Assembly: GCA_964472425.1 (NCBI GenBank)
Contig: CAYYLF010000002.1
Span: forward strand, 1-49,809
DNA length: 49,809 nt
Direction: 5' to 3'
From: an uncultured Muribaculaceae bacterium
GTDB taxonomy: Bacteria > Bacillota_I > Bacilli_A > RF39 > UBA660
Shown: piece by piece, positions 23,086 through 49,809 of the stretch
Layout of the letters: each line of letters opens with the position of its first letter
Numbering within the stretch: position 1 is the first letter of the stretch
Notes under the pieces: generated by a model
Told to the model about the DNA's origin: nothing
Databases searched by the model: none
Seen by the model: only the letters and a program-made list of their open reading frames with translations
Position numbers and translations under genes: made by a program

Positions 23086-24423
23086 ATGCCAAGACTTAGA
23101 AGAAAAATAGATGCATTTTTGCTAAGTTGGAAAAACGATGAAAACAGACTTCCGCTCGTAGTAAAAGGGGCAAGACAGATAGGAAAAACCGACGCCATCG
23201 AAAACTTTGCGGCCAACAACTACAAGTACCTTGTAGATATCAACTTCGTACTAGACAAACAATACAAAGGCATCTTTGACGATGGATACGACGTGGACAC
23301 GATTATCAGAAACATCTCTCTCATCAATCCCAGATTTGAATTCGTTCCAAAAGAAACGCTCATCTTTTTCGACGAAATACAAGATTGTGCAAACGCAGCT
23401 ACTTCTTTGAAATCGTTCAACATACATGGCCGTTATGACGTCATTTGTTCGGGCTCGCTTATGGGTATAAATTATAACGAAATCGAATCTAATGCTGTCG
23501 GAAACAAACGAAATTACGAAATGTATTCCCTTGACTTCGAAGAATTTCTCTGGGCCAAAGGTTATAAAGAAGAACAAATCGAAGACATGTATTCCTACAT
23601 GAAAGAATGCAAGCCACTTCCCCAAATTATGTACGACGTCATGCTCGACAATTCCCGAGAATACATGGTCGTTGGAGGGATGCCTGCCATAGTAAATAGA
23701 TTCGTAACTCAAAAGAACTATAGTGGTATACTCGAAATGCAAAATCAGATACTCCTAGACTACAAAGAAGACATCACCAAATACGCCCAAGGTCTAGACC
23801 AGACTCGCATACTGAATGTCTATAACAAAATACCAGTTTTCTTGGGAAACGAAAACAAAAAATTCCAAATATCGAAAGTCGAACACGGGGCGAGAACACG
23901 CGAGTACATAGGTACAATCGATTGGCTCGACCGCGCTGGAATAATAAACATCTGCCACTGTCTCGAACAACTAGAGCTTCCCCTCAAAGCAAACTACAAT
24001 CCGGACAATTATAGAATTTACTTTAGAGATACAGGTCTACTAATCGCGTCACTCGACGAAGAATCTCAAATGGATTTGAGAAACAACAAAAACTTCAACA
24101 CATATAAAGGAGCTCTATACGAAAATATAGTAGGGGACATGTTAGTCAAAGCCGGCTATTCGCTTTACTTCTACAAAAACGAAAAAGGCACAATCGAAAT
24201 GGACTTCTTCGTAAGGGACGCCGATTCGCTCATCCCAATCGAAGTCAAAGCGAACGACAACAGTACTCCGTCGCTCAATAACTTGATAAACTCGGATTCG
24301 TTCAAAGTCATCAAATACGGAATAAAACTGTGCAACAAGAACATCGGCTTCAATGGCAAATTCTACACCTTCCCGTACTTTCTGACCTTCCTATTGAAAA
24401 GATATCTAAAAGAGAAAAAATAA
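23086..24423 (+). CDS. AAA ATPase of the COG1373 / DUF4143 type, copy 1
   Basis: Walker A GARQIGKT, Walker B LIFFDEIQ. C-terminal ..YENIVGDMLVKAGYSLYFYK....EMDFFV....IPIEVK nuclease-like tail. AGAGGTGA RBS before ATG 23086. Confidence 0.8.
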   Translation: MPRLRRKIDAFLLSWKNDENRLPLVVKGARQIGKTDAIENFAANNYKYLVDINFVLDKQYKGIFDDGYDVDTIIRNISLINPRFEFVPKETLIFFDEIQDCANAATSLKSFNIHGRYDVICSGSLMGINYNEIESNAVGNKRNYEMYSLDFEEFLWAKGYKEEQIEDMYSYMKECKPLPQIMYDVMLDNSREYMVVGGMPAIVNRFVTQKNYSGILEMQNQILLDYKEDITKYAQGLDQTRILNVYNKIPVFLGNENKKFQISKVEHGARTREYIGTIDWLDRAGIINICHCLEQLELPLKANYNPDNYRIYFRDTGLLIASLDEESQMDLRNNKNFNTYKGALYENIVGDMLVKAGYSLYFYKNEKGTIEMDFFVRDADSLIPIEVKANDNSTPSLNNLINSDSFKVIKYGIKLCNKNIGFNGKFYTFPYFLTFLLKRYLKEKK

Positions 24424-24575: not shown

Positions 24576-25838
24576 ATGAAATACGTCAATAGAACTATGG
24601 AAAAAACACTAAAAAAATTTATAGGAAACTATCCTGTTATTTTAATCACTGGGCCACGTCAAGTAGGGAAAACGACACTTCTAAATTATTTATCCAGTAC
24701 TTCCAAGAAAAAAATAAACTATGTTACTTTAGATGACAAAATTGTAAGTGCTCAGGCAAGTGCCGATCCCGAGTTGTTTCTTAGAATGCACGAGACCCCT
24801 CTCGTAATAGACGAATTCCAGTATGCTCCAGAAATACTGTCGTATATCAAAATTCAAATCGACCAAGCGAGAAAAGATGCCATGTTCGGCAACAAAAAGG
24901 AAGTTGGCACACTTTATTATCTTACCGGTAGTCAGATTTTTGAAACGATGAAAGATGTGACAGAATCCTTAGCTGGAAGAATCGGAATACTGGATTTATA
25001 CGCCTTTTCGACGCGCGAACTCGAAAATTCTGAAGAAATACCTTTCGTACCAGATGTGCAAAAACTCAAAAAGAAAAAACAGGTTGATAGAGTATCCATT
25101 CCTAAATTATTCGAAAGAATACTGAAAGGAAGCTACCCAGAAATAAACTTTAACAAGAATATAAGTTTTGAAAATTATTTTAGGGATTACATTAGAACTT
25201 ACATAGAAAGAGATATAAGAAAGATAATAAACATCAAAGACGAAAACAAATTTATTCACTTCTTAACTTCAATTGCCGCCCGAACCGGACAAGAGTTTAT
25301 CGCTGAACACATAGGAAAAGAAATAGGAATAACGGGTAAAACTGTCGACGAGTGGCTATCGCTCCTCAAAAATACGGGTATAATTTACCTTTTAAAACCT
25401 TACTCGAATAACTTTGTCGCTCGTGCCATCAAAAGAGAAAAAATCTACTTTATGGACACAGGGCTTGCCTGCTATTTAACTGGCTACACCGACTCATCCA
25501 TCCTAGAAAAGAGTGCTTATAATGGCGCCATTTTCGAAACGTATATTATAAGCGAAATCGTCAAATCGTATGAAAATAATGGAATCGACCCCGACAGACA
25601 TCTATATTTTTATAGAGATAACCGCCAACAAGAAATCGATTTAATTGTAAACGACAATAATTTCCTTTATCCAGTCGAAATCAAAAAAAGCACCAATCCG
25701 AGTCGAGAAGCGACTAAAAATTTCGATGTTCTCAAAAATTCGGGGTACAATATAGGCAATGGAGTAGTGCTCTGCCTTTGTAAAGAAATCACGGCGATAG
25801 ACGACAACAACTATCGTGTTCCAATTGAATATATATAA
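24576..25838 (+). CDS. AAA ATPase of the COG1373 / DUF4143 type, copy 2
   Basis: Walker A GPRQVGKTT, Walker B LVIDEFQ. C-terminal ..FETYIISEIVKSY.......QEIDLIV......PVEIKKS. Confidence 0.8.
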   Translation: MKYVNRTMEKTLKKFIGNYPVILITGPRQVGKTTLLNYLSSTSKKKINYVTLDDKIVSAQASADPELFLRMHETPLVIDEFQYAPEILSYIKIQIDQARKDAMFGNKKEVGTLYYLTGSQIFETMKDVTESLAGRIGILDLYAFSTRELENSEEIPFVPDVQKLKKKKQVDRVSIPKLFERILKGSYPEINFNKNISFENYFRDYIRTYIERDIRKIINIKDENKFIHFLTSIAARTGQEFIAEHIGKEIGITGKTVDEWLSLLKNTGIIYLLKPYSNNFVARAIKREKIYFMDTGLACYLTGYTDSSILEKSAYNGAIFETYIISEIVKSYENNGIDPDRHLYFYRDNRQQEIDLIVNDNNFLYPVEIKKSTNPSREATKNFDVLKNSGYNIGNGVVLCLCKEITAIDDNNYRVPIEYI

Positions 25839-35046: not shown

Positions 35047-36597
35047 ATGAAATTAGAAACGAAGAGAATGATTTGCTTATTGATAGTAATCACGTCTATC
35101 ATCGCGATTGTAGGAACTGTATCTTTCGCGTACTTCACGTCGGTCGCCAATCCGGTTACGCAAGAGGCGAGCATATCGACGGGAACGACGAAGGTAACTT
35201 TTGCCGATGGAGACTTAGGGATGAGTGGTACTTTAAGTTTTGGTGATTCGGTTACAAAGAAGTTCACGATTACGAATACGGGTACGACTGTGGCAAGTGT
35301 GAAGTTATATTGGAAAGATTTAGTCAATACCTATACGACGGGAAGTCTCACTTATACTTTGAGTTATAGTGAAACGGAGAATGGGACATACAAAGAAGTA
35401 GTAGGGAAGAAGAATGTACCGAGCAGCAGTAGACTCCAAATGGCGACATTAGTCGATAAAGTGACTATTCCAGTTGGAGGAACATACTATTACAATTTGG
35501 TCATTACTTTAAATTACTTAGATGATGTAAATCAAGATGCCGATAAGATAGCGAGTCTATCTACATACTTCCAAGCAGAAGACTTACGTACAAATGTTAA
35601 ACCTACGAACGAGTTCGCAAACCTATTGCTCAGTAAAGCGAACGACGAAAATGTGACCGATTACAATTCGGGTAACAAACAAGAGATGTTCGTATTCGAC
35701 CATGAGATTACTAACTCGTACACGTATACAGAATATACTGAAGAAGGGGAAGAAGAAACATATACAGATACATGTACAGCAACCCAAATCGAAGATTGGA
35801 CAGATGAGGAAAGAAGAGATTATAGATACATAGGAAGTGAACCTAACAACTATATAACCTTCAATGACGAGACTTGGAGAATAATAGGAGTATTTACAGT
35901 CGAGACTGAGACAGGCGAAAAAGAGCAATTGGTCAAAATAGTTAGAGAAGAAAGTATAGGCAGTATAGATTTAGATCCTGAACAGCATGATACTCGTTAT
36001 TCTAGTCCCGGTTGGATAGGTACTGCAATGCAAATTATGCTAAACGGCGATTATTATAATAAAGAAAGTTTTACATACAAAAATGGTTCAAACGAAATAA
36101 CGATAAATGGTTTGAATTCTAAATCTCGTGGGCAAGTAGCCAAAGTAAAATGGTATTTAGGGAGTGAAAATTATGACGGTGGAATAACGGTGCATAACTA
36201 TTATTCTTCAGAAAGAGGAATAAAAGGGTGTATGTCTTTTTGTGACAAAAGAAAGGATGTATTTAATGTAGTACAAAATATTGGGTTTATATATGTGACC
36301 GACTATATGTTTACATACGCTGATGGAGTAAATGATAAATGTTACGACGATGGTAGATGTAATTCTGATAATGCAAAAGCAGGTTGGCTATATAATGGTG
36401 CATATCAATGGACTTTATCTCAATCGCTTAGTGGAATTACAATATTAGGAATTCGAGAAAGTGGAGCTATAATTCTTGCTTTCCCTGGCAATTTTACGGA
36501 GCTAACTTACAGTACTCGTCCATCTCTTTACCTCAATTCCTCTATCAAAATAATCGATGGGGACGGAAGTGCCGGAAATCCATACACGATAGGCTGA
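35047..36597 (+). CDS. Secreted protein, paralog C: SipW-type signal + TasA/camelysin-like module + family C-module
   Basis: AAGAGGA RBS. IVGTVSFAYFTSVANPV signal pattern. FGDSVTKKFTITNTGT. C-module RDYRYIGSEPNNYITFNDETWRIIGVFTVETE...RPSLYLNSSIKIIDGDGSAGNPYTI. Confidence 0.75.
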   Translation: MKLETKRMICLLIVITSIIAIVGTVSFAYFTSVANPVTQEASISTGTTKVTFADGDLGMSGTLSFGDSVTKKFTITNTGTTVASVKLYWKDLVNTYTTGSLTYTLSYSETENGTYKEVVGKKNVPSSSRLQMATLVDKVTIPVGGTYYYNLVITLNYLDDVNQDADKIASLSTYFQAEDLRTNVKPTNEFANLLLSKANDENVTDYNSGNKQEMFVFDHEITNSYTYTEYTEEGEEETYTDTCTATQIEDWTDEERRDYRYIGSEPNNYITFNDETWRIIGVFTVETETGEKEQLVKIVREESIGSIDLDPEQHDTRYSSPGWIGTAMQIMLNGDYYNKESFTYKNGSNEITINGLNSKSRGQVAKVKWYLGSENYDGGITVHNYYSSERGIKGCMSFCDKRKDVFNVVQNIGFIYVTDYMFTYADGVNDKCYDDGRCNSDNAKAGWLYNGAYQWTLSQSLSGITILGIRESGAIILAFPGNFTELTYSTRPSLYLNSSIKIIDGDGSAGNPYTIG

Positions 36598-36683
36598 TAA
36601 ATAAGGAATTTCTCAAAAATTATCACTTTTAGCAAAAAAGTTGACAAAAATCACAAAAAGTATGATATAATCTTCTTGTGATT

Positions 36684-36770
36684 GCCTCTGTGGCGGAATT
36701 GGTAGACGCGCTGGACTCAAAATCCAGTGGTAGCGATACCGTGCCGGTCCGAGTCCGGCCAGAGGCACCA
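36684..36770 (+). tRNA. tRNA-Leu (anticodon CAA), class II, CCA encoded
   Basis: Acceptor GCCTCTG/CAGAGGC. D-arm GCG-GAATTGGTAGA-CGC. Anticodon stem CTGGA/TCCAG with loop CTCAAAA. Long variable arm. T-arm GCCGG-TCCGAGT-CCGGC. Confidence 0.88.
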
Positions 36771-36782
36771 TTAATTGAAAAC

Positions 36783-40359: not shown

Positions 40360-40395
40360 CTTGCAACCATTTTATGATATAATCAACTTGTGCCT

Positions 40396-40482
40396 GTCCT
40401 TGTGGCGGAATTGGTAGACGCGTTGGTCTCAGAAGCCAATGATAGCAATATCGTGCCAGTTCAAATCTGGTCGGGGGCACCA
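40396..40482 (+). tRNA. tRNA-Leu (anticodon CAG), class II, CCA encoded
   Basis: D-arm identical to the CAA tRNA. Anticodon stem TTGGT/GCCAA with loop CTCAGAA. T-arm GCCAG-TTCAAAT-CTGGT. Acceptor GTCCTTG/CGGGGGC needs three G-U pairs. Confidence 0.75.
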
Positions 40483-40493
40483 TTATGTAATTT

Positions 40494-40577: not shown

Positions 40578-40586
40578 TGCTATAAT
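40578..40586 (+). promoter_or_regulatory. Extended -10 element upstream of essC
   Basis: TGcTATAAT (TG 40578-40579, TATAAT 40581-40586). No good -35. Confidence 0.35.
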
Positions 40587-40613
40587 TATACATAATAGGA
40601 GTGGGAATCGCTT

Positions 40614-43600
40614 ATGAAGATATACTTGTACCTCAAAAACAAAATTTTGACCTTTGCACTTCCTCAAAAAGTTTCAGGAAACTTCAACTTCGACGAACAC
40701 TCGTACGAAGAATCCAAACTGATAAACATCGAAGCCATCGATTCCAAATGGTACTTATATTCGACGAGTGACGTAAACATCATCTCGAACGGAATGGTTC
40801 TCGCTCGTGTTGCTCTCGAAAAAGACCAATACTACTTCGTCAAGAGAGCAGGGGTAGACTACATGCTCTTCGCGACCGACGCCTTCGACGCGAGTTTCTT
40901 GCCGTACAAATACAGCCAAGACACGGCACTCACCATCGGAAACGACTCGTCTTGTAATATAAAATTCTCGTCTCCCTTCGTCAAAGGGGTCGCAGCCAGA
41001 ATAAGAATATCCGGCACGGACATAGGACTCGACACCTTAGAGACGACCGTCTATCTGAACAATGTCGCCCTCGAACCCAAGACGACGAACTATCCACTAA
41101 AAGGTGGGGACGAGTTGAACATCTATGGACTGAAACTCATGTTCCTAAATGGCTTTCTGCTTTTGAACAATCCTCACAACACGGTCACCTGCAACACGGC
41201 CAGTGCCAAACTGTCCTCGTACCAGCTCACCTATGGAAATGACCCGCAAGACCTCGAAATCAAAGATGCAGAACTCTACTCTAAAGACGACTACTTTTCG
41301 AAGTCCCCAAGAATAAGACGAACTATAAAGACCAAGGAGATAACCTTAAGCCCTCCACCTCGTCAAGACAAAGAGACCGAAATGCCACTTCTTTTGACGA
41401 TTGGACCTATGCTCACGATGGGGTGTGTTTCACTCATCATGTTTCTAAATACGCTAGGAAACATCTCGAACGGAAAAGCGACCCTCGCCCAATCTTGGCC
41501 GAGCCTCCTTTCTTCGATGGCCATGCTCGCCTCGACCCTTCTGTGGCCGACTCTCACGCGCATATTCAATAAGACACTCAAAGCCAAGAGAAAAAGAGAA
41601 CTCATTCGCAAATACACCCGTTACCTCGACACCAAAAGAGAAGAGCTTTCGAAAGAGCAAAAACTGCAACACGAAATACTTCTAGAAAATCTGATTCCAG
41701 TATCCGAATGTCTAAACATCATCCAAAGCGGAAAAGCTCGGTTCTGGGACAAGCGCATAGAACAGAGTGACTTCCTCGAAGTTCGCCTCGGCACGGGCAA
41801 AGAACACTTAGATGTCAAAATAAACTACCCGGAAGAGGGTTTCACCATCGACGAAGACGACCTTCGTAAACAAGCCGATGCTCTCGTCGAAGAATTCGCT
41901 TACTTGTACGATGTGCCAATAGGCTACTCGCTATACAAAAACAAGATAACCGCCCTCATGGGTGATGCGAACAAATGCAACGGAATGCTCCAAAACATCA
42001 TCCTTCAACTTCTGACCTTTTATAGCTACGAAGACATCAAAATAGTCGTCATCACGAACCCCTTGAACCAAGACAAATGGGAATACGTCCGTTACTTGAA
42101 TCACTCATTCTCGAACGACAAACAGATAAGATTCTTCTCTTCCGATGCCGAAGGAGCTAAGAGGATATGCGACTATCTGAACACCGAACTCACTTCGCGT
42201 ATCCAACTCGCTCAAGACGGGGCCAAATTCTTCAAACCGTACTATGTCATCTTCACCGACAACTACTCGCAAATCAAGCGGCACAATTTCACGAAGACGA
42301 TGACCGAATACGACGAAAATTTGGGCTTCAGTCTCGTCATTCAGGAAAGCCGAATGAGCAAACTTCCGAGCAAATGTAACAACTTCATAACCCTTAGTGG
42401 CTCGTCCGCGGACATCCTCAAAAACTCGTTCGAAGCCCAAGAAGCATCGAGTTTCCACGAAGAAATAAACGCGAGCATCGACATGATGGCCGTCGCCCGA
42501 AAAATCTCAAACATACCTATCGAATTCGAAGAAGGAACCAAACAACTGCCGGATTCCATAACCTTCTTGGAGATGGAAAGAGTAGGTAAAGTAGAACAAC
42601 TGAACATCATGAACCGTTGGGATACAAACGACTCGACGACGAGCCTCAAAGCGGAGATAGGTGTCGACGACGAAGGAAGCCCGATGTATTTGGACCTTCA
42701 CGAAAAATATCACGGGCCCCATGGACTTATCGCCGGCATGACCGGAAGTGGTAAATCCGAATTCATCATCACCTACATCCTATCGATGGCCATCAACTAC
42801 AGTCCCGACGACGTCGCCTTCATTCTCATCGATTATAAGGGTGGAGGACTCGCGGGAGCCTTCGAAAACAAGACGACCGGATTCGTCCTTCCACACCTCG
42901 CCGGAACGATTACCAACCTCGACAAAGCCGAGATGGACAGAACTCTCGTCAGCATAGACAGCGAAATAAAACGTCGTCAAAAGATATTCAACGAAGCCCG
43001 CGACCGCTTGGGCGAATCGACCATCGACATCTACAAATACCAGACCTTCTTCAAAGAAGGAAGATTAACTGAACCGGTCCCACATCTTTTCATAATATGC
43101 GACGAGTTCGCCGAGCTGAAAAGTCAACAACCGGAATTTATGGACAACTTGATAAGCGTAGCCCGCATAGGTCGAAGCCTCGGTGTTCACCTCATCTTGG
43201 CCACTCAAAAACCGAGTGGAGTGGTAAACGACCAAATTTGGTCCAACACCAAGTTCCGGGTCTGTTTGAAGGTTCAAGATGCCTCCGACAGTAAAGAAAT
43301 GCTCAAACGCCCGGAAGCCGCGAGCATCAAACAGACCGGTCGGTTCTACCTACAAGTCGGATACGACGAATACTTCGCACTCGGTCAATCGGCTTGGTGT
43401 GGTGCCAAATACTTCCCGAGCGAAAAAATCGTCAAACAAGTCGACAAGAGCATCAACTTCATAGACGACACGGGAAACGTCATCAAGAGCATCCAATCGG
43501 GCAACAACATCAAAATCGAAGCTCAAGGCGAACAACTCGCGGCCATCATGACCAACATAGTCGAGGTCGCGCGTACCTTCGGAAAGAAGACCAAAAGACT

Positions 43601-45194
43601 TTGGCTGAATGCCATCGACCCGATTATCTTGATAGACAACCTCGTCAAAAAATACGGCTTTGTCCGCACTCCGTACGACGTGAAAGCCATCATAGGTGAA
43701 TACGATGCGCCCGAAAAGCAAGAGCAAAACATCTTAATATACGACCTCGCCAAAGACGGCAATACGGTCATCTACGGAAACGACGAAATCGAAAGAGAAA
43801 AAGTTCTGAACGCGATTATCTACTCGATATGTACGGCCCACACGGCCAAAGAGATAAACATCTACTGCATCGACTACGGTTCGGAACAGCTGAGAATGTT
43901 CGGTCGTCTTCCTCAAATCGGTGGACTCGTCTACATGGGCGACGACGAAGGAATCAAAAACCTCTTCAAATTGATAGTCGAAGAGATTAAGTCGAGGAAG
44001 AAAAAACTCGTCCAATACGGCGGTTCACTCGAAAGTTACAACAAGAAAAACGAGGTTAAACTTCCTCAAATATTGTTCGTAATAAACAACTACGAAGGAC
44101 TCACCGAAATATACAATTCTATCTACGAGGACATCGCCTCTATCGGTCGCGACTGTGAAAGATACGGCATCACCCTCGTCCTCACGTGCAACACTCCATC
44201 GACCCTCGGTCGCCGCGTGGCTCAATGCTTCAACAACAAATATGCTCTCCATCTTTCGGACCCATCTGATTATTATGGCATATTCACTTTGAAATCGAAG
44301 ATAAGACCGCGAGACATTTTAGGACGGGGGCTCGTCTCGAACGACGGAGTACACGAATTTCAAACTGCTTCGATAGTGCCGCCGGAAACGAGTCTGAACG
44401 AATACGTCGAAAACCTCACCGAGCGTATAATCGAACTTGACACCTCGACTGCCAAACCGATTCCAGCCTTGCCTAAGAAGGTCACTTACGAAATCGTCGC
44501 GAACGAAATTTCAGACCTTTCCAAAGTGCCTATCGGCATAGCCAAAAATTCGCTCCGCGTGATAAAGTACGACTTCCGAGCTTTCCCGATGACGACCATC
44601 GCTTCGAACAAACTTTCGAACATCGACTCGTTCATGGATTCACTTCTCGAAGTATTGGTTCGCGTGAGCGAACTGACCGTCTTCTTTATCGATACGGTTG
44701 GAGTTCTGCCTGTCGCGGCAACTAAGGCAAATGGCAGCAAGAAGATAAACTATTTCGACACCGGATTCGACGAGATTCTCGAAAAGTTCACCTCGATTGA
44801 AAAGAGTTCAGAATACGACAAATACCAGATACTCTACATATTCTATGGCCTCGAAAAACTCAAGAGTAAAGCTGAAACTTCCAAAATTGAAGCTTTCTTT
44901 GGTGCCTTGAAGACGAGCGAACACAGTCATGCGATAATCGCGGACGGCTCTAAAAACCTCAAGTCTCTCGACATGGATATGTGGTATTCTAAAATCAAGA
45001 ACAACACAGACGGCATATGGATAGGTCGCGGCTTCTCCGACCAACAAAACTTCCGCATCAGCAAGATAACCAAAGAAATGTCCGAGCCGCTCGCCAACAA
45101 CTACGGCTTCTATCTAAACGAAAGCAATGCCGAACTCATGAAAGTTCTCGAATTCAACGATTTACTAAAAGAGGAGGATGAAGATGAAGAATAA
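40614..45194 (+). CDS. essC: Type VII secretion (T7SSb) FtsK/SpoIIIE-family ATPase EssC/YukB-like
   Basis: N-terminal tandem FHA-like region. Two TM helices (LLLTIGPMLTMGCVSLIMFL; LLSSMAMLASTLLWPTL). D1 Walker A GMTGSGKSE (42735-42758), Walker B LFIICDEFAEL, GVHLILATQKPSG. 1526 aa. Confidence 0.9.
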   Translation: MKIYLYLKNKILTFALPQKVSGNFNFDEHSYEESKLINIEAIDSKWYLYSTSDVNIISNGMVLARVALEKDQYYFVKRAGVDYMLFATDAFDASFLPYKYSQDTALTIGNDSSCNIKFSSPFVKGVAARIRISGTDIGLDTLETTVYLNNVALEPKTTNYPLKGGDELNIYGLKLMFLNGFLLLNNPHNTVTCNTASAKLSSYQLTYGNDPQDLEIKDAELYSKDDYFSKSPRIRRTIKTKEITLSPPPRQDKETEMPLLLTIGPMLTMGCVSLIMFLNTLGNISNGKATLAQSWPSLLSSMAMLASTLLWPTLTRIFNKTLKAKRKRELIRKYTRYLDTKREELSKEQKLQHEILLENLIPVSECLNIIQSGKARFWDKRIEQSDFLEVRLGTGKEHLDVKINYPEEGFTIDEDDLRKQADALVEEFAYLYDVPIGYSLYKNKITALMGDANKCNGMLQNIILQLLTFYSYEDIKIVVITNPLNQDKWEYVRYLNHSFSNDKQIRFFSSDAEGAKRICDYLNTELTSRIQLAQDGAKFFKPYYVIFTDNYSQIKRHNFTKTMTEYDENLGFSLVIQESRMSKLPSKCNNFITLSGSSADILKNSFEAQEASSFHEEINASIDMMAVARKISNIPIEFEEGTKQLPDSITFLEMERVGKVEQLNIMNRWDTNDSTTSLKAEIGVDDEGSPMYLDLHEKYHGPHGLIAGMTGSGKSEFIITYILSMAINYSPDDVAFILIDYKGGGLAGAFENKTTGFVLPHLAGTITNLDKAEMDRTLVSIDSEIKRRQKIFNEARDRLGESTIDIYKYQTFFKEGRLTEPVPHLFIICDEFAELKSQQPEFMDNLISVARIGRSLGVHLILATQKPSGVVNDQIWSNTKFRVCLKVQDASDSKEMLKRPEAASIKQTGRFYLQVGYDEYFALGQSAWCGAKYFPSEKIVKQVDKSINFIDDTGNVIKSIQSGNNIKIEAQGEQLAAIMTNIVEVARTFGKKTKRLWLNAIDPIILIDNLVKKYGFVRTPYDVKAIIGEYDAPEKQEQNILIYDLAKDGNTVIYGNDEIEREKVLNAIIYSICTAHTAKEINIYCIDYGSEQLRMFGRLPQIGGLVYMGDDEGIKNLFKLIVEEIKSRKKKLVQYGGSLESYNKKNEVKLPQILFVINNYEGLTEIYNSIYEDIASIGRDCERYGITLVLTCNTPSTLGRRVAQCFNNKYALHLSDPSDYYGIFTLKSKIRPRDILGRGLVSNDGVHEFQTASIVPPETSLNEYVENLTERIIELDTSTAKPIPALPKKVTYEIVANEISDLSKVPIGIAKNSLRVIKYDFRAFPMTTIASNKLSNIDSFMDSLLEVLVRVSELTVFFIDTVGVLPVAATKANGSKKINYFDTGFDEILEKFTSIEKSSEYDKYQILYIFYGLEKLKSKAETSKIEAFFGALKTSEHSHAIIADGSKNLKSLDMDMWYSKIKNNTDGIWIGRGFSDQQNFRISKITKEMSEPLANNYGFYLNESNAELMKVLEFNDLLKEEDEDEE

Positions 45195-45564
45195 AGTGCT
45201 GATAAGACTGTTCGTTCCCGAACTCGACTACACCTTCGATGTCTTTATACCGATTAACGAGATAATCTGGAAAGTGAAAAAACTCCTAGCTAAATCCGTG
45301 AGCGACCTCACTTCCGGTGCAATCAATCCTGCGGCCGACTACACTTTGATAAACAAAGTGACGAGCAAAGTCTATGACAACAACGACATAGTCGCGAACA
45401 CCGACATCCGAAATGCAACCGAACTTCTGTTTCTCTCGGTCAAGGAGAATAACATCGCTTTCAACAAGTCGATTCCCATTCCAGATTCACCAAAACATAA
45501 TGCTACTACCGAACCTAAACAAAACGTTCTCGAGAACATCTTCGAAAAGTTTACAGCCAAGTAA
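45178..45564 (+). CDS. esaB: YukD/EsaB-like ubiquitin-fold T7SS accessory protein with a C-terminal tail
   Basis: Overlaps the essC stop. VLIRLFVPELDYTFDVFIPINEIIWKVKKLL....... YTLINKVTSKVYDNNDIVANTDIRNATELLFL resembles YukD/EsaB. The GAGGAGG RBS favours the ATG at 45184. Confidence 0.6.
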   Translation: MKMKNKVLIRLFVPELDYTFDVFIPINEIIWKVKKLLAKSVSDLTSGAINPAADYTLINKVTSKVYDNNDIVANTDIRNATELLFLSVKENNIAFNKSIPIPDSPKHNATTEPKQNVLENIFEKFTAK

Positions 45565-45573
45565 ACTTTTTTC

Positions 45574-45607
45574 TTGGCAAAAGTAGGATGCATCCTACTT
45601 TTGCCAA
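45574..45607. repeat. Perfect 34-nt palindrome TTGGCAAAAGTAGGATG|CATCCTACTTTTGCCAA
   Basis: Read directly. Sits 10 nt after the esaB-like stop. Confidence 0.95.
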
Positions 45608-45653
45608 TGACTATTTCCGCAATTTGTTTTTTAATACTGCCAGGTGATAACGT

Positions 45654-46018
45654 ATGATTAAAAGAGAAATCGAGAAAAAACTTAAATCTATCTCCGATAC
45701 TAGACGAGTTTTGCTTATTACTGGAGCAAGACAAGTAGGGAAATCTACACTTGTAAAAAATATTCGAGAAACAGACCGTGTATATGTGACTTTAGATGAC
45801 TTATCTCTATGAGAGCTAACTCAAAACGGCCCTAAACTATGAAGGGAAAATTGATAATAGATGAGGTTCAGTATGCTCCAAAATTATTTTCCTATATAAA
45901 AATGGAAGTAGATAACTCTAAAGAAAAAGGTAAATTCTGGTTGACTAGCAATCAGTATGTTATGGGGATAAAAATGATAAAGAGAACTTGTCAAAAGTTC
46001 CCGTCGTGCCGAGCGTAG
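45654..46018 (+). pseudogene. Decayed COG1373/DUF4143 ATPase gene
   Basis: MIKREIEKKLKSISDTRRVLLITGARQVGKSTLVKN...YVTLDDLSL then TGA (45810). A second TGA at 45840. A frameshift, then KLIIDEVQYAPKLFSYIKMEVD..GKFWLTSNQ (Walker B region). The rest of the gene is missing. Confidence 0.75.
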
Positions 46019-46207
46019 GCGATGCCAACAGAGACGAACACATATTATCCAATAAGTTAATGAACACAATCATGTGTTCCTTTTTCTATTCTACTATACA
46101 CTCAAACCGTAAAACATATTGTGAAATCTTTAGAACTTTGTTACAATTAAAATAGTAGGTAATAGAAAAGCAAACTATATTATTTACCATGAAAAGAGAG
46201 ATAAAAA

Positions 46208-46879
46208 ATGAGTTTAAATCCAACGGGAGGAAATATCGTAGGTTACAATGCACAGGCAATTGAAGAACTGGGAAGTTATATAAACTCTATTGCTTCTAAA
46301 ACTGGAAGCAACATAGTAGAAAGACTACATACGAGCATCATCGTACCTATGTCGACAGTCTGGTATGCACCGGAGGCTAAATCTTTTTTTGAAGGACTAG
46401 CCACTGCCGTAGAACAATCTGGCGAAGCGATTACAGATGCCTTCGACGCTTTTAGAAACGCCATCCAAGAAGCCGGAAGAGTCTGGGCTGAAGCTACGGG
46501 CGGAGCCGTACCAACTTTGTCGTCCATTTGCAAAGTCGAATTGATTCTCTGCACATCCGAAATTCAATCGAGCAATGCTGGAAGTGTCACGATAGACGTC
46601 GCCCAAGCAACTGCGATTGCCAACAGCGTATCGGAAGTTAGAGAAACCATCAGAACCGACTTGCAAACGCTTGCCGACCAATTGGATGCCGAATCGGCAT
46701 TCATAGGACAAGGACAAGCCCAAGCCGTCGCTCAATGCTTTGCGACCATAAGCGAATGTGTCGACAAAATTTTCGACTATCTCACAGAAGGAGAAGACTC
46801 TCTACAAAGACAAATCAACAAGGCTGCCAAAAAATACAAAGACATGTCCGGCGAAGTATCTAGTGCTTTTACGAACTAA
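46208..46879 (+). CDS. Candidate T7SS substrate: helical protein with two WXG100-like halves
   Basis: Half 1: ...YNAQAIEELGSYINSI...STVWYAPEAKSFFEGL.... Half 2: ...IDVAQATAIANSVSEVRETI...SAFIGQGQAQAVAQCF.... Ala/Gln/Glu-rich, no TM. Context is downstream of essC. Confidence 0.45.
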   Translation: MSLNPTGGNIVGYNAQAIEELGSYINSIASKTGSNIVERLHTSIIVPMSTVWYAPEAKSFFEGLATAVEQSGEAITDAFDAFRNAIQEAGRVWAEATGGAVPTLSSICKVELILCTSEIQSSNAGSVTIDVAQATAIANSVSEVRETIRTDLQTLADQLDAESAFIGQGQAQAVAQCFATISECVDKIFDYLTEGEDSLQRQINKAAKKYKDMSGEVSSAFTN

Positions 46880-46974
46880 AGAATATTTTTCAGAAAGAGA
46901 ACATTCTTTCTCTGAATACATGGGAATGTATTGCATGAGTACATTCCCGTATATTTGGAAAATGGGTGATAACT

Positions 46975-47535
46975 ATGATAGAAGTCGATACGGCGAATCT
47001 TAAAACCGCCTTGACCACTTTAGAAACATTGATAAACGAATACGAAGAAATAGAACTCAACCTTTTCAACCAACTCAACCAAGTTGGAATAGACTGGCAA
47101 GATGGAAATGCCACAATCTTCGCGGACAAAATCTACCTCGATAAAAAGGAAAGCGACCTCTACGTACAGTCCCTGAAGGCGAAGAAAGACGTCACGGCAT
47201 ACGTGTATGAAAGGTATTCGAGTCTCGGTAAAAAAATACGTTGCAACTTGAATAGTCGTACGACTGTCCTTCGTGCCCTCGAAGAATGCCAAAATCGTGC
47301 CATCTCGCTCGCTCGCTCATTCGAAAACATCGATATAAATGTTCTTATGACCGAAAAAGACATCGTCGAAAGTCAAAGAAAAAAAATAAATAAAGTCGCA
47401 GCCACTTTAACGGAAATAAAGAAAGATACCTCTAAAATGTACGACCAAATAGAAACTATAGAAAAGAACGTCGAAGCCAAAATTCGTGACCTCGAAAAAA
47501 TCAAAATAAACGACTTCGGACTAGAACTCGAATAG
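46975..47535 (+). CDS. Candidate LXG/WXG-like helical protein (no toxin domain)
   Basis: MIEVDTANLKTALTTLETLINEYEEI...GIDWQDGNATIFADKI (W-x-x-G-x-A), followed by a coiled-coil-like region. GTG 46966 is an alternative start. Confidence 0.45.
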   Translation: MIEVDTANLKTALTTLETLINEYEEIELNLFNQLNQVGIDWQDGNATIFADKIYLDKKESDLYVQSLKAKKDVTAYVYERYSSLGKKIRCNLNSRTTVLRALEECQNRAISLARSFENIDINVLMTEKDIVESQRKKINKVAATLTEIKKDTSKMYDQIETIEKNVEAKIRDLEKIKINDFGLELE

Positions 47536-47545
47536 GAGGAAAACC

Positions 47546-47842
47546 ATGAACCAAGGAATACTCGATAGACCTGCCCTCGAAAGGGACATCGAACAGATAA
47601 ATTATTATTCTACCGAAGAAAAGGCGACTTTGACGGCTATATTCTCTCAGATGAATGCCTGCCTCGCGTGCTACCAAAGTCCAAACTCCAAACTGTTCGC
47701 CAATGAAATAGATGAAAGCAGAGAAGACATTGCCGCCCTCGAAAATAAAAGAACTATGTACACGGTGACTATCGATAAGGCTATTAGAACGTACGAAGAC
47801 CTCGCTAAACACACGACAAAATACTTTGGAGATATCGTATGA
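47546..47842 (+). CDS. Small helical protein of WXG100 size (98 aa)
   Basis: AGGAGG RBS. Predicted helix-turn-helix hairpin size. ATGA overlap with the next gene. Confidence 0.4.
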   Translation: MNQGILDRPALERDIEQINYYSTEEKATLTAIFSQMNACLACYQSPNSKLFANEIDESREDIAALENKRTMYTVTIDKAIRTYEDLAKHTTKYFGDIV

Positions 47843-48084
47843 GTGAAACAGAAAGGCAAAAGATTTCTAATGCCGTCTCGGAACTGGAAGGTCTCGTCAC
47901 AAAAATCGACAATTTAACCGAAGACATCGGAAGTTTAAAGACGACGATTGGCGATGACATCTCTATCGATGACCATCCCTTCGATGAGGATAAACTGAAT
48001 TCGATTGAAAGTGACCTCGCGTCGATTTCGCATACGATAAAAAATACAGTAATCCCAAAAATATTAGAAAAAATAGAAGAATAA
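47839..48084 (+). CDS. Small acidic helical protein (81 aa)
   Basis: Translationally coupled to 47546..47842. No motif recognised. Confidence 0.4.
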   Translation: MSETERQKISNAVSELEGLVTKIDNLTEDIGSLKTTIGDDISIDDHPFDEDKLNSIESDLASISHTIKNTVIPKILEKIEE

Positions 48085-48136: not shown

Positions 48137-48165
48137 TTTACAAAAAAGGCATTTTGCCATATAAT
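48137..48165 (+). promoter_or_regulatory. Sigma-A-type promoter
   Basis: TTTACA 48137-48142, 17-nt spacer, TATAAT 48160-48165. It lies inside the long ORF-track frame, which supports the ATG at 48187. Confidence 0.45.
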
Positions 48166-48186
48166 AATGGTGAAAAGGAGGTTCTC

Positions 48187-49467
48187 ATGCAGACACTCGA
48201 ATACAAAATTCCCACCCAAAATAAAGTCGAAAAAAAATTCTTCGTCATCTCGGACCTCCACATCGCTCGCGAAAAAGACCTCGAAAAACTGGACAAAATA
48301 ATCTATCAACTTTCTAAAACGGCCGGCTTATCGGGAAGAAGATACGATGCGATATTCGTCGTCGGTGACATAATCGACGCGACTAACGCTCTTCGAAGCC
48401 CCAAAATCGTAAGAAAACTGTTGAATTTTCTTCGCGAACTCGGACAAACTGCTCCGACTTTCCTCGCTATCGGAAATCACGACTTGTGCTACTCGTACAA
48501 AACGAGATGGAAACCTCGTTACTTTCGACCTGACCCTTATTACTTACAAGAACACATCCTCGATGAAGCTTGGAACTACGAGGGAATCGAAATCTTAGAT
48601 AACGAAACATACGAACTCGACGACGACTACACGATAAGCGTCTACAATCCGCCTCTCGAATACATGTCCGATGCTCCCGACGGAAACGATTCCTATCTAG
48701 AAAGAAAAGAAATAAAGCAATATGCCTTCTTGAAAAAATTGGACCAAAACAAAGTTAATATTCTACTTTGTCATTATCCCAATGTCATAAAATTTCTTCA
48801 TAAAACCAATTATTTGAAAAAAATCGACCTCGCCATCGCCGGTCACAACCACCACGGCATGACACAGTTCTTGCACATGGATGCGATTCTCGATTTTTTG
48901 AGACTTCCGAATAGGGGAATAATTACCCCCGGAAAGAGTTTCAAACCGAAAGATACTAGAAAGATGAGAGGTCTCATGAAACTTGACGACACGACCCATC
49001 TACTCATAAATCCGGCCGTCACCTCACTTTCGTGGAACACGCGACCACTTTGCATCTTAAATCCACTTTTCTACTCGGGCTCATCCGCAGTTTCGTTAGT
49101 TACCATTTCAAACAAACCTGTAAAAGAAAAGAAAAAGAAAAAAATATACAAAGAAAAAGGAGAAACGCACATGGAATACATCGTAGAACTATTATTAGAA
49201 GTCGTCATAGAAGGCTCCATCGCCGGAAGCACGAACGACAAATTCCCGATGGCTATAAGAATAATTCTCGGAACTATAGTAGTCTTATTCTTCCTCTCTG
49301 TGACGATCGGACTCATCGTTCTCGGATTCGTCTTCTCGAAACAACATAAGATTTGTCTTCTGATATCTCTGATAGGTTTCATCATGCTAGGCTTTTCGCT
49401 CGGCAAAATATACGACTTATATATCGGAAACAAAAAAGAAAAACAGTCCGACGACTCTCAATTTTAA
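48187..49467 (+). CDS. Calcineurin-like metallophosphoesterase fused in frame to a C-terminal membrane module
   Basis: AAGGAGG RBS. VISDLHI, VVGDIID, AIGNHD, LLCHYP, IAGHNHHG motifs. The C-terminal ~100 aa carry two or three TM helices. Confidence 0.75.
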   Translation: MQTLEYKIPTQNKVEKKFFVISDLHIAREKDLEKLDKIIYQLSKTAGLSGRRYDAIFVVGDIIDATNALRSPKIVRKLLNFLRELGQTAPTFLAIGNHDLCYSYKTRWKPRYFRPDPYYLQEHILDEAWNYEGIEILDNETYELDDDYTISVYNPPLEYMSDAPDGNDSYLERKEIKQYAFLKKLDQNKVNILLCHYPNVIKFLHKTNYLKKIDLAIAGHNHHGMTQFLHMDAILDFLRLPNRGIITPGKSFKPKDTRKMRGLMKLDDTTHLLINPAVTSLSWNTRPLCILNPLFYSGSSAVSLVTISNKPVKEKKKKKIYKEKGETHMEYIVELLLEVVIEGSIAGSTNDKFPMAIRIILGTIVVLFFLSVTIGLIVLGFVFSKQHKICLLISLIGFIMLGFSLGKIYDLYIGNKKEKQSDDSQF

Positions 49468-49669: not shown

Positions 49670-49809
49670 ATGTATAGAGCATATAAGTTTAGATTGTATC
49701 CGACTCCCGAACAAAGACAGAGTATCAACCGATTTGTGGGTTGTTCACGCTTCATCTATAATCATTATCTTGATGTCATGAAAGAAAATGGATATAAAAA
49801 TAAGTTCGA
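49670..49809 (+). mobile_element. tnpB: 5' part of an IS200/IS605-family tnpB (OrfB) gene, truncated by the window edge
   Basis: MYRAYKFRLYPTPEQRQSINRFVGCSRFIYNHYLD matches the conserved TnpB N-terminus. GGGGGA RBS. Confidence 0.75.

What the first reader, a model, noticed from the sequence alone, without database searches (positions are those of the whole stretch)
40578..48084. Pared-down T7SSb-like locus: EssC and YukD/EsaB-like only, followed by atypical WXG/LXG-like genes
A 1526-aa FHA-TM-FtsK/SpoIIIE ATPase is translationally coupled to a ubiquitin-fold YukD/EsaB-like protein. This pairing is a hallmark of Firmicute type VIIb secretion. No ORF in the window resembles the other canonical membrane components (EsaA/YueB, EssA, EssB/YukC). 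No canonical about-100-aa EsxA precedes the locus. Instead, four small helical proteins (223, 187, 98 and 81 aa) follow, separated from the machinery genes by a decayed ATPase pseudogene. The locus starts right after a tRNA-Leu gene and a toxin-antitoxin/HipA-like islet, and a tnpB fragment lies at the far end. This is compatible with a horizontally acquired island. Either the missing parts are encoded elsewhere or this is a reduced or novel variant of the system.
Basis: partly seen in the sequence, partly recalled or inferred. Interest (0 to 1): 0.75.

Follow-up and report, generated by a model that had tools for sequence, protein, structure and literature searches.

The report
Stripped-down type VII secretion gene cluster
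This is a conserved six-gene version of the Gram-positive type VII protein-export system, found in more than 50 uncultured small-genome gut bacteria, that keeps only the motor ATPase and its ubiquitin-like partner as locally encoded machinery and so may be the simplest natural form of the system.

Summary
Window 40614-48084 encodes a genuine EssC (TIGR03928, 984 bits against a cutoff of 778). It overlaps a small protein with a ubiquitin fold that is a divergent YukD/EsaB relative. After a dead AAA_14/DUF4143 ATPase remnant come four soluble helical proteins. Three of them (223, 189 and 98 aa) are divergent WXG100-superfamily members. No EssB, EsaA, EssA or canonical EsxA is in the window.

New here: the same module, in the same order, recurs in about 55 species-level genomes of uncultured gut and rumen Bacilli. 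One of these is a closed 1.26-Mb chromosome. The flanks differ between genomes and no membrane partner is conserved nearby. All six genes are under purifying selection. In relatives the module is followed by CHAP-domain proteins or giant polymorphic proteins that look like cargo.

None of the published subtypes T7SSa-j has this composition. I read it as a reduced T7SS variant in which EssC plus the ubiquitin-like protein is the only machinery encoded at the locus.

I could not test whether partners lie elsewhere in these genomes.

The parts
40614..45194 (+). essC/tsxC. Membrane FtsK/SpoIIIE-type T7SS ATPase, 1526 aa. Layout: divergent N-terminal FHA region, two TM helices (about 258-316), a DUF/stalk, then three ATPase domains. 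Only D1 has intact Walker A (GMTGSGKS, residue 708) and Walker B (LFIICDE, residue 825).
   Evidence: TIGR03928 scores 984 bits, above the 778 cutoff. YukB 9qks_G matches at E 5e-124. Median identity to the window by domain: D1 0.83, FHA 0.33, D3 0.28.
45178..45564 (+). Ubiquitin-like protein (TsxB; divergent YukD/EsaB), 128 aa. The conserved core is about 88 aa and is followed by a lineage-specific tail of about 40 aa. The gene overlaps the essC stop. The likely true start is 45184.
   Evidence: The AF2 core has pLDDT above 93 and a beta-grasp fold. Foldseek finds ubiquitin and the EccD5 UBL, 7npt_D8 and 7np7_D2. A cluster member in L058 passes the Pfam YukD gathering score at 33 bits. The window protein aligns to that member at 27% identity over 82 aa, E 3e-7. 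A UBL gene is present in 55 of 55 loci.
45576..45605 (.). 30-nt perfect palindrome immediately after the UBL stop codon. It may be a hairpin or terminator, or an insertion boundary. Not followed up.
   Evidence: Read directly from the sequence.
45651..45937 (+). Remnant of an AAA_14/DUF4143 ATPase gene. It is frameshifted and only about 105 of about 420 codons remain. It is an insertion and not part of the secretion module.
   Evidence: blastx against the intact paralog at window 24576-25838 finds two frames, E 2e-14.
46208..46879 (+). c3, 223 aa. A single-chain tandem WXG100-like, LXG-like helical protein. It has an invariant Trp52 at the first hairpin turn and a conserved F165-x-G-x-x-Q turn in the second half. 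It is the most constrained gene of the module.
   Evidence: Alignments A2 and A4. The AF2 model has pLDDT 91 with helices 15-49, 55-97, 131-162, 170-193 and 199-222. Weak hits: WXG100 at E 0.003-0.03 and ESAT-6 at E 0.02-0.03. hhalign gives 71% for the N-half against WXG100 and 87% for the C-half against c7. The WXG HMM hits both halves of many family representatives. dN/dS is 0.007-0.05.
46966..47535 (+). c2, 189 aa (186 aa from the ATG at 46975). It has a WXG100-like N-terminal hairpin (invariant W44, then F52) and a further helical region of about 90 aa. It is fused to the c7 family in some relatives. In 'variant 2' loci it carries a C-terminal extension of 200-250 aa.
   Evidence: Alignment A3. 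hhalign gives 96.4% for the N-half against WXG100, E 1e-9. The c7 HMM hits the 263-305 aa c2 proteins of L001, L027 and L050.
47546..47842 (+). c7, 98 aa. A divergent WXG100-family protein with Y-x-S in place of W-x-G. It is the candidate EsxA/TsxA or Lap-like partner.
   Evidence: The family HMM recovers Pfam-positive WXG100 proteins of related loci. hhalign gives 92.3% against WXG100 (E 5e-7) and 96.6% against c13.
47839..48084 (+). c6, 81 aa. A small helical protein that overlaps the c7 stop. It is homologous to c30 and c164 of variant loci. No link to WXG100 was detected.
   Evidence: HMM cross-hits. hhalign gives 95-96% for c164 against c6 and c30.

Best explanation
The locus is a working, reduced subtype of the Gram-positive type VII secretion system. 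It is characteristic of a clade of uncultured, small-genome gut and rumen Bacilli.

**Shown**
- The conserved unit is six genes: essC, a ubiquitin-like gene, c3, c2, c7 and c6.
- EssC and the ubiquitin-like protein are the only recognisable machinery parts.
- c3, the N-half of c2, and c7 belong to the WXG100 superfamily.
- All six genes are under purifying selection.

**Inferred mechanism**
- EssC hexamerises through its DUF/stalk and its two TM helices to form both channel and motor. Only ATPase domain D1 is catalytic. D2 has lost its P-loop lysine. D3 is degenerate and fast-evolving, as expected of a substrate-recognition domain.
- The ubiquitin-like protein sits between the EssC FHA region and the DUF, as YukD does in B. 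subtilis. This locks EssC into an assembly-competent shape. It also explains why the FHA region and the UBL are kept together although EssB is missing.
- c3 is a single-chain equivalent of an EsxA dimer or an LXG domain. Together with c2, c7 and c6 it forms helical-bundle complexes that are exported. These complexes also act as targeting adaptors for larger cargo.
- In relatives the cargo is encoded just downstream: CHAP-domain proteins, CW_7-bearing proteins, and polymorphic proteins of 0.8-2.5 kaa, each followed by a small gene. This suggests cell-wall-directed antagonism or wall remodelling.
- The window itself has no cargo gene next to the module.
For: **Identity of the machinery**
- EssC passes the TIGR03928 equivalog cutoff and matches YukB.
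- The UBL fold is confirmed, and its link to YukD is shown.

**Conservation of the module**
- 56 related loci were found in GTDB species representatives, plus further metagenome contigs.
- Gene order is the same while flanks are unrelated.
- The UBL is present in 55 of 55 loci. Among 43 loci with enough downstream DNA, c3 is in 33, c2 in 37, c7/c13 in 36 and c6/c30 in 29. Divergent c3 members raise the c3 count further.
- dN/dS is 0.007-0.23 for all six genes.

**Missing partners**
- No conserved TM protein lies near essC.
- No YukC, EssA or EsaA Pfam hit appears in any Pfam-labelled context or among the window's TM proteins.

**Helical proteins and cargo**
- c2 and c7 occur as a fusion in some relatives.
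- A c3-like domain forms the N-terminus of 384-740 aa proteins.
- L012 has polymorphic cargo, with two copies identical over 835 aa and then divergent.
- A CHAP domain and a CW_7 motif occur in the downstream proteins of relatives.

**Literature**
- YukD clamps between the YukB FHA domains and the DUF, and YukB forms the central channel (PMC12637312).
- Published subtypes T7SSc-j show that T7SS can lack EssB, EsaA and EssA. None has this composition (PMC11217815).
Against: - Whole genomes could not be searched, including the closed 1.26-Mb chromosome OZ006994.1. Partners encoded elsewhere are therefore not excluded.
- No T7SS has been shown experimentally to work with EssC as its only membrane protein.
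- The WXG100 assignments rest on profile-profile scores and sub-threshold database hits. Foldseek gave nothing specific for c3.
- c6 has no detectable family link.
- The organisms are uncultured, so there is no expression or secretion evidence.
- The window lacks an adjacent cargo gene, and a pseudogene interrupts the cluster. In this particular genome the two halves may therefore be transcribed separately.
Confidence: 0.6

Rival explanations
1. Split canonical T7SSb. The genome does encode EssB, EsaA and EssA (and perhaps a canonical EsxA) at another locus. This cluster would then be only the essC-esaB part plus one substrate/adaptor set.
For: - EssC passes the T7SSb EssC equivalog model.
- It keeps an FHA region, which in T7SSb contacts EssB (PMC12637312).
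- Only about 50 kb of this genome, and +/-10 kb around each relative, could be inspected.
Against: - In canonical T7SSb the machinery genes are contiguous (PMC11217815).
- None of about 55 loci with different flanks carries any of these genes within 10 kb.
- The FHA region does not align to YukB at all. It is among the fastest-evolving parts of the protein.
- Keeping the FHA region is explained by UBL binding alone.
Confidence: 0.2
2. Reduced T7SS with unrecognised, non-homologous partners. Lineage-specific membrane or wall-spanning proteins, encoded elsewhere or too divergent to cluster, complete the machine. This would parallel the kinase, TsxH/I/K or beta-propeller components of T7SSc-j.
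For: - Each published subtype has its own extra components.
- Most species in the related orders are predicted to have a peptidoglycan wall, which a secretion system has to cross (PMC10868615).
- A CHAP hydrolase follows the module in six loci.
Against: - No such gene is conserved next to essC in any sizeable subset of loci beyond single genera.
- BLAST clustering at E 1e-5 and the HMM searches found only the six families.
Confidence: 0.15
3. Decaying relic. The cluster is a remnant of a once-complete T7SSb, left behind in a genome undergoing reduction, and it no longer secretes anything.
For: - A pseudogene sits inside the cluster.
- The D2 and D3 P-loops are degenerate.
- No cargo gene lies next to the module in the window.
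- The lineage has reduced genomes (PMC10868615).
Against: - All six ORFs are intact here and in dozens of species.
- dN/dS is 0.007-0.23.
- The D1 Walker A motif is present in every clade member (G-[MT]-TGSGKS).
- The pseudogene is an unrelated AAA_14/DUF4143 ATPase, not a T7SS gene.
- The degenerate D2 motif is itself conserved as G-x-D-x-x-E-R-E.
Confidence: 0.04
4. Not a protein-secretion system. The FtsK/SpoIIIE ATPase is a DNA translocase of a conjugative or integrative element.
For: - There are weak secondary hits to TraB, FtsK and HerA models.
- A tnpB and a toxin-antitoxin pair lie nearby.
Against: - The three-ATPase-domain EssC architecture scores far above the FtsK and TraB models (984 bits against 58 and 23).
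- A YukD-like UBL and WXG100-like genes are co-conserved with it.
- There is no relaxase, integrase or other conjugation gene at the locus.
Confidence: 0.01

Closest known systems
T7SSb (Ess/Yuk system of Staphylococcus aureus and Bacillus subtilis)
   Same: - The EssC-type ATPase has an N-terminal FHA-like region, two TM helices, a DUF and three FtsK-like domains.
- A small YukD/EsaB-type ubiquitin-like protein is present.
- WXG100-superfamily small proteins and LXG/Lap-like helical partners are encoded next to the machinery.
- Polymorphic, probably wall-directed cargo follows the module in relatives.
   Different: - No EssB/YukC, EsaA/YueB or EssA/YueC lies at the locus in about 55 genomes.
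- There is no canonical esxA upstream.
- The UBL gene follows essC instead of preceding it.
- The EssC D2 P-loop is lost.
- The FHA region cannot be aligned to YukB.
- The WXG-like proteins fall below all curated thresholds, and one is a single-chain tandem.
T7SSg and T7SSf of Garrett, Higginson & Palmer 2024 (PMC11217815), the simplest published non-a/b subtypes
   Same: - Both have a small component set built on TsxA (WXG100), TsxB (UBL) and TsxC (ATPase).
- Neither has EssB, EsaA or EssA.
- Candidate toxins with Lap-like small partners lie nearby.
   Different: - T7SSg's ATPase lacks FHA domains. That system also has the DUF5050 beta-propeller TsgL and adjacent Tad pilus genes.
- T7SSf has a PPM phosphatase, a DUF6382-FHA membrane protein and an AAA+ ATPase.
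- None of these components is present here.
- That survey used RefSeq, and the uncultured lineage found here is not among the organisms it names. I did not place this EssC on their tree.
LXG toxin with Lap1/Lap2 targeting complexes of T7SSb
   Same: - A helical domain of about 200 aa sits with two or three small helical partner genes beside it.
- The c3-like domain also occurs at the N-terminus of 384-740 aa proteins with variable C-termini.
- c2 and c7 occur as a fusion in some genomes.
   Different: - Pfam LXG and the Lap families (DUF3130, DUF3958) are not hit.
- In the window, c3 and c2 are stand-alone domains without a toxin part.
- The set is conserved as part of the core module rather than varying with the toxin.
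EccD N-terminal ubiquitin-like domain of mycobacterial ESX (T7SSa)
   Same: It has the same beta-grasp fold and is among the top structural matches to the window UBL (7npt_D8, 7np7_D2). In ESX-5 it contacts EccC.
   Different: In ESX it is a domain of a polytopic membrane protein. Here it is a free protein of 88-128 aa, and no EccD-like protein is present.

Membership tests
T7SSb (canonical Ess/Yuk) | [quoted passage not shown] | tested here: met
   TIGR03928 scores 983.9 bits against a cutoff of 778.4. YukB matches at E 5e-124. FHA is only a weak Pfam hit (E 0.0017), and the N-terminal 218 residues do not align to YukB.
T7SSb (canonical Ess/Yuk) | EsaB/YukD ubiquitin-like protein | tested here: met
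   The window protein itself misses Pfam YukD. Its model is a confident beta-grasp that matches ubiquitin and the EccD5 UBL. It aligns at E 3e-7 to a cluster member that passes the YukD gathering score.
T7SSb (canonical Ess/Yuk) | EsxA: a WXG100 protein of about 100 aa that passes family thresholds, usually first in the cluster | tested here: inconclusive
   No protein reaches the WXG100 or TIGR03930 cutoffs, and no gene precedes essC. The 98-aa protein is related to bona fide WXG100 proteins by profile comparison (92%, E 5e-7). Its W-x-G motif is replaced by Y-x-S.
T7SSb (canonical Ess/Yuk) | EssB/YukC pseudokinase membrane protein | tested here: not met
   Absent from the 49.8-kb window. Absent within +/-10 kb of essC in about 55 related loci. 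The rest of the genomes could not be searched.
T7SSb (canonical Ess/Yuk) | EsaA/YueB and EssA/YueC membrane proteins | tested here: not met
   Same searches as for EssB. No protein of the right size, topology or family is present, and no TM protein is conserved near essC. Absence across whole genomes was not testable.
T7SS in the broad sense (TsxA/TsxB/TsxC core of PMC11217815) | A membrane EccC/EssC-type ATPase, a WXG100-family protein and (almost always) a ubiquitin-like protein, encoded together | tested here: met
   TsxC and TsxB are met as described above. WXG100-superfamily membership of c7, the c2 N-half and c3 is supported by hhalign and HMM results.
Published subtypes T7SSc-j | Subtype-specific accessory components: Ser/Thr kinase TsxD, PPM phosphatase TsxF, DUF6382-FHA TsxJ, TsxH/I/K, EspG-like TsxG, beta-propeller TsgL, AAA+ TsfV | tested here: not met
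   None appears in the window's module or its flanks, or as a conserved neighbour in the clade. By inspection of their sequences, proteins with kinase-like and phosphatase-like motifs do appear next to the distant essC genes of L058, L059 and L062, at 33-35% identity. Those loci were not scanned against Pfam. Phylogenetic placement against the paper's data set was not done.
LXG polymorphic toxin / Lap system | An N-terminal LXG domain (PF04740) fused to a C-terminal toxin, with DUF3130/DUF3958-type partners and an immunity gene | tested here: not met
   No LXG or Lap Pfam hit was found for c3, c2, c7 or c6. The window proteins have no toxin domain. The resemblance is architectural only.
tRNA-associated genomic island | An integrase, a direct repeat of the tRNA 3' end at the far border, and atypical composition | tested here: not met
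   There is no att-like repeat and no integrase among the ORFs. The G+C of essC equals that of the housekeeping genes. tRNA adjacency is not conserved in relatives.

The most novel reading that the evidence does not exclude
EssC plus one free ubiquitin-like protein is a complete, self-sufficient type VII secretion machine in these reduced-genome gut Bacilli. No EssB, EsaA or EssA, and no analogous membrane or wall-spanning partner, exists anywhere in the genome. The machine exports a single-chain 'pre-dimerised' WXG100/LXG-like protein together with its helical partners and giant polymorphic cargo. This would be an eleventh T7SS subtype and the natural minimal system.
Probability: 0.35. Interest if true: 0.75.

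Novelty: new variant of a known kind. Interest (0 to 1): 0.55.

Why it matters
What forms the T7SSb channel, and which components are truly indispensable, are still open questions. The 2025 B. subtilis cryo-EM work places EssC at the centre, with YukD as an assembly clamp and EssB as an outer crown.

A natural lineage that keeps only EssC and the ubiquitin-like protein would argue that this pair is the irreducible core. It would also argue that EssB, EsaA and EssA are accessory adaptations. Conservation across more than 50 species under purifying selection supports reading the pair as functional.

Practical consequences:
- It offers a six-gene system small enough for heterologous reconstitution and structural work.
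- It shows that highly reduced, uncultured gut Bacilli still invest about 7.5 kb in a contact or competition weapon, with cell-wall-directed and giant polymorphic cargo. This bears on their ecology in human and animal guts.
- The single-chain tandem WXG100/LXG-like protein is a new family for recognising T7 substrates in metagenomes.

Tried and rejected
- **Exact-sequence look-up of the window EssC.** Not on record.
- **Profile of the UBL family against PDB sequences.** No hit even at E 10. The fold had to be shown by structure prediction.
- **Foldseek of the c3 model against the PDB.** Only generic helical bundles (ferritin/Dps, de novo designs) at E of 0.036 and above. Uninformative.
- **PDB profile searches for c3 and c2.** Mostly coiled-coil noise. 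ESAT-6 appeared only at E 0.02-0.03.
- **Pfam on the large downstream proteins of relatives and on the extended c3-domain proteins.** Essentially nothing.
- **c18 (about 1040 aa) as an EsaA candidate.** Rejected. Its N-terminus reads like a class I aminoacyl-tRNA synthetase (my reading of the sequence).
- **L050's 1583-aa neighbour.** It is PolC.
- **c19 and c20 of the 40%-identity group.** No relation to c3, c2 or WXG100 was detectable.
- **Internal duplication of c3 (N-half against C-half).** Not detected by hhalign.
- **Promoter and terminator scan.** Counts were no higher than in shuffled sequence, so I made no operon claims from it.
- **Literature search linking CAG-451 to RF39.** The passage was not within the held text. 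The RF39/RFN20/ML615J-28 assignment therefore stays an inference from record titles and my memory of GTDB.


Full report
**1. What is in the window**

- EssC lies at 40614-45194 (+) and is 1526 aa. It scores 983.9 bits on NCBIfam TIGR03928 'type VII secretion protein EssC', whose curated cutoff is 778.4. It also hits Pfam FtsK_SpoIIIE and, weakly, FHA.
- Its best solved relative is B. subtilis YukB (9qks_G, E 5e-124). The alignment runs from the linker and TM region through ATPase domain 1. The N-terminal 218 residues do not align.
- Only D1 has canonical Walker A and B motifs. D2 carries G-N-D-E-I-E-R-E where the P-loop should be, and D3 is degenerate.
- A 128-aa ORF (45178-45564) overlaps the essC stop.
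- Two out-of-frame pieces of an AAA_14/DUF4143 ATPase follow. They match residues 2-54 and 76-104 of an intact paralog at 24576-25838.
- Then come ORFs of 223, 189, 98 and 81 aa. None has a predicted TM segment.
- The next gene (48154-49467) is a metallophosphoesterase with C-terminal TM helices. It has its own promoter-like site, and I do not count it as part of the module.
- Upstream lie tRNA-Leu(CAG), a HipA_C-like protein that scores below threshold, a YefM/YoeB pair and a second tRNA-Leu.
- At the far end, the N-terminal HTH of a TnpB runs off the window.
- The rest of the window appears, from ORF sizes and sequences, to be ordinary chromosome: nusA, infB, truB, ribosomal proteins and glmM. 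This reading was not scanned against any family library.

**2. The ubiquitin-like protein**

- It has 145 relatives in the 5.8-billion-protein collection. All come from uncultured Bacilli or Firmicutes and none carries a Pfam annotation.
- The conserved core is about 88 residues. The window protein has an extra tail of about 40 residues.
- A PDB sequence-profile search found nothing.
- Single-sequence Pfam scans gave only weak UBL_UBAC1 hits (31 of 57 members) and YukD hits (2 of 57).
- AlphaFold2 with the family alignment gives a confident beta-beta-alpha-beta-beta core, with pLDDT above 93.
- Foldseek returns ubiquitin variants. At ranks 4 and 10 it returns the N-terminal ubiquitin-like domain of EccD5 in the ESX-5 complex.
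- One member of the same BLAST cluster (L058) passes the Pfam YukD gathering score at 33 bits. The window protein aligns to it at 27% identity over 82 residues, E 3e-7.
- I conclude that it is a divergent YukD/EsaB (TsxB) family member.

**3. Comparative genomics**

- A scan of one genome per GTDB species with the window EssC returned 56 loci at 33-76% identity.
- Nearly all are gut or rumen MAGs. Their titles read uncultured Bacilli, Tenericutes, Mycoplasmatota or Acholeplasmataceae, or 'Clostridium sp. CAG:451'.
- One is a closed 1,256,474-bp chromosome (OZ006994.1, L017).
- These names fit the reduced-genome uncultured orders RF39, RFN20 and ML615J-28. That assignment is my inference. For background on those orders see PMC10868615.
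- I called ORFs in all loci and clustered them. The recurring pattern is EssC, UBL, c3 (about 215-245 aa), c2 (about 185 aa), c7/c15 (about 98 aa), c6 (about 82 aa). Further contigs with precomputed Pfam labels show the same order.
- A second arrangement (L038, L042, L043, L049, L054, L055, L060, L061) permutes the same families: UBL, c13, c3, c30, c11. HMM and hhalign results show that c13 is c7-like, c30 is c6-like, and c11 is c2 with a C-terminal extension.
- The UBL is present in 55 of 55 non-redundant loci. Of 43 loci with more than 3.5 kb downstream, c3 is found in 33, c2 in 37, c7/c13 in 36 and c6/c30 in 29. The c3 count rises when the divergent clusters c128, c131 and c61 are included.
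- Flanking genes differ between genera, and no TM protein is conserved next to essC.
- No context with Pfam labels shows YukC, EssA or EsaA. None of the window's TM proteins hits them either.
- The more distant essC loci (33-35% identity: L058, L059, L062) do carry Ser/Thr-kinase-like and PP2C-like neighbours. That is my reading of sequence motifs, not a family scan. They probably belong to other published subtypes.

**4. The four helical proteins**

- *c7 (98 aa).* Its family HMM recovers proteins of related loci that pass or nearly pass Pfam WXG100. hhalign gives 92% (E 5e-7) against those WXG100 proteins and 96.6% against c13. The W-x-G turn reads Y-x-S.
- *c2.* It has an invariant Trp44 followed by Phe52, which is the W-x-[GD]...F signature. 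Its N-half scores 96.4% (E 1e-9) against WXG100. In L001, L027 and L050, c2 is fused to a c7-like domain. This argues that the two proteins act together.
- *c3.*
  - It has an invariant Trp52 at the first hairpin turn, which is literally W-[KVH]-G in the second arrangement. A conserved F-x-G-x-x-Q turn lies in the second half.
  - Evidence that it is WXG100-like is individually weak but consistent. Pfam and TIGR03930 hit the C-half at E 0.003-0.03. ESAT-6 hits the N-half at E 0.02-0.03. hhalign gives 71% and 87%. The WXG HMM hits both halves of many family representatives at E 3e-6 to 3e-4.
  - The AlphaFold2 model is confident (pLDDT 91, pTM 0.84) and all-helical with two hairpin units. Foldseek finds nothing specific.
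  - An exhaustive profile search finds only 325 cluster representatives. Most are 210-250 aa. A few are 384-740 aa, with the c3 domain at the N-terminus, a Gly/Asn/Pro-rich linker and a further C-terminal domain. This is how LXG domains are used in T7SSb toxins.
- *c6.* It has relatives (c30, c164) but no detectable WXG100 link.

**5. Selection and domain conservation**

- Among six related species (L014, L017, L018, L019, L025, L032), dN/dS is 0.05-0.08 for essC, 0.03-0.12 for the UBL, 0.007-0.05 for c3, and 0.10-0.23 for c2, c7 and c6. The module is maintained by selection, and c3 is its most constrained gene.
- Across the clade, EssC D1 is 83% identical to the window at the median. The FHA region (33%) and D3 (28%) are the most variable.
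- The D2 motif G-x-D-x-x-E-R-E is conserved in the clade. Distant relatives, and a second EssC copy in L016, keep G-x-x-G-x-G-K-T.

**6. Likely cargo**

- In six loci a protein of 415-459 aa with a C-terminal CHAP domain follows c6.
- In others, proteins of 0.8-2.5 kaa follow. They have no Pfam domain and share a central region, but their ends vary.
- L012 has two copies that are identical for 835 residues and then diverge. Small c16 genes (74-88 aa) accompany these large proteins in L012, L043 and L061.
- One such giant protein has a weak CW_7 cell-wall-binding hit.
- This is the pattern of polymorphic toxins with immunity genes. The window has no such gene next to c6.

**7. Mechanism**

- *Shown.* The composition, the conservation, the UBL fold and the WXG100-type relationships.
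- *From the literature.* In B. subtilis, YukB forms the central channel. YukD is gripped between the YukB FHA domains and the DUF, and it stabilises the unit that then recruits YukC (PMC12637312).
- *Inferred.* In this clade the EssC-UBL sub-complex is kept while the EssB crown and EsaA/EssA are not. EssC alone provides the membrane channel, driven by D1. c3, c2, c7 and c6 form exported helical bundles that also target the downstream cargo.

**8. Comparison with what is known**

- Garrett, Higginson and Palmer (PMC11217815) defined T7SSa-j from RefSeq.
- All subtypes share TsxC and TsxA, and most share TsxB. Each has its own extras: kinases, phosphatases, FHA proteins, a beta-propeller, EspG-like chaperones, or large wall-spanning proteins.
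- None combines an FHA-bearing EssC with a UBL and nothing else. The organisms that paper names do not include this uncultured lineage.
- Full-text searches found no 'T7SSk' and no paper linking T7SS with RF39 or Tenericutes.
- I therefore rate this as a new variant of a known kind. It is not categorically new.

**9. What is not supported or not resolved**

- The island hypothesis lacks support in composition, att repeats, an integrase, and conserved tRNA linkage.
- The two tRNA-Leu genes, each with about 23 nt of upstream sequence, are 80% identical over 113 nt. They bracket the DHH, YefM-YoeB and HipA-like genes, not the T7 module.
- The decisive test is a whole-genome search for EssB, EsaA, EssA or other partners. 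It could not be run with these tools.

Noticed in passing
window 43746-43769 (EssC residues about 1045-1052); alignment of L001-L062 EssC proteins: The Walker A motif of EssC ATPase domain 2 is replaced by a conserved G-x-D-x-x-E-R-E motif throughout the clade. Distant relatives (L058, L059, L062) and a second EssC copy in L016 keep GxxGxGK[TS]. The loss is conserved, which suggests a fixed regulatory or structural role for D2.
   Followed up: partly
L001:11118-12035, L027:15743-16612, L050:18949-19740: In these loci the c2 and c7 families are fused into one protein of 263-305 aa. This natural fusion implies that the 189-aa and 98-aa window proteins work as a pair.
   Followed up: partly
P0251 (675 aa), P0271 (740 aa), P0243, P0237: In some metagenomic proteins the c3-like domain forms the N-terminus. 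It is followed by a Gly/Asn/Pro-rich linker and a C-terminal domain of about 300 aa with no Pfam hit, rich in Gly and Ala. These are candidate toxins with an LXG-like layout.
   Followed up: partly
L012:12221-19086: Two tandem genes of about 1100 aa are 99.5% identical over their first 835 residues and then diverge. A small 82-aa gene lies between them. This is the classic arrangement of a polymorphic toxin with a displaced C-terminus.
   Followed up: no
L049:9974-21931, L054:9974-21408; also L016 and L041: Some genomes carry two essC genes in or near the same cluster. The second copy is shorter (1460-1487 aa) and has a divergent D1 P-loop (GIPG[SA]GKT).
   Followed up: no
window 45576-45605: A 30-nt perfect palindrome (GGCAAAAGTAGGATG/CATCCTACTTTTGCC) lies directly after the UBL stop codon, at the border of the pseudogene insertion.
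   Followed up: no
window 36661-36773 and 40373-40485: Two tRNA-Leu genes (CAA and CAG anticodons), each with about 23 nt of upstream sequence, are 80% identical over 113 nt. They bracket a 3.6-kb block that holds a DHH phosphoesterase, a YefM-YoeB toxin-antitoxin pair and a HipA_C-like protein.
   Followed up: partly
window 23065-24423 and 24576-25838: Two intact tandem AAA_14/DUF4143 ATPase genes. They are paralogs of the decayed copy that sits inside the T7SS cluster.
   Followed up: yes
window 6844-7621, 21525-22301 and 35797-35946: Two predicted surface proteins of about 435 aa have near-identical N-termini (79% DNA identity over 788 nt). They also share a 150-nt segment (86%) with the 516-aa protein that carries a camelysin-type signal. 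This looks like a small paralogous family of exported proteins.
   Followed up: no
window 8303-12678: A cluster encodes a fused solute-binding/VWA protein, an XpaC-like (Halogen_Hydrol) membrane protein, an unknown 378-aa TM protein and an SPFH/Band_7_1 protein. It may be a membrane-stress module and seems unrelated to the T7SS.
   Followed up: no
window about 49670-49809: The N-terminal HTH_OrfB_IS605 domain of a TnpB/IS605 OrfB gene (E 1.5e-19) runs off the window end. The window cannot show whether the gene is intact.
   Followed up: partly
L017:16706-18085 and its orthologues in L014, L018, L019, L025, L032: A protein of 415-459 aa follows c6. It has a low-complexity N-terminal region, a C-terminal CHAP domain and no evident signal peptide. 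Its dN/dS is 0.10-0.36. It could be T7 cargo, or a wall-opening hydrolase analogous to S. aureus EssH (the EssH comparison is from my memory).
   Followed up: no
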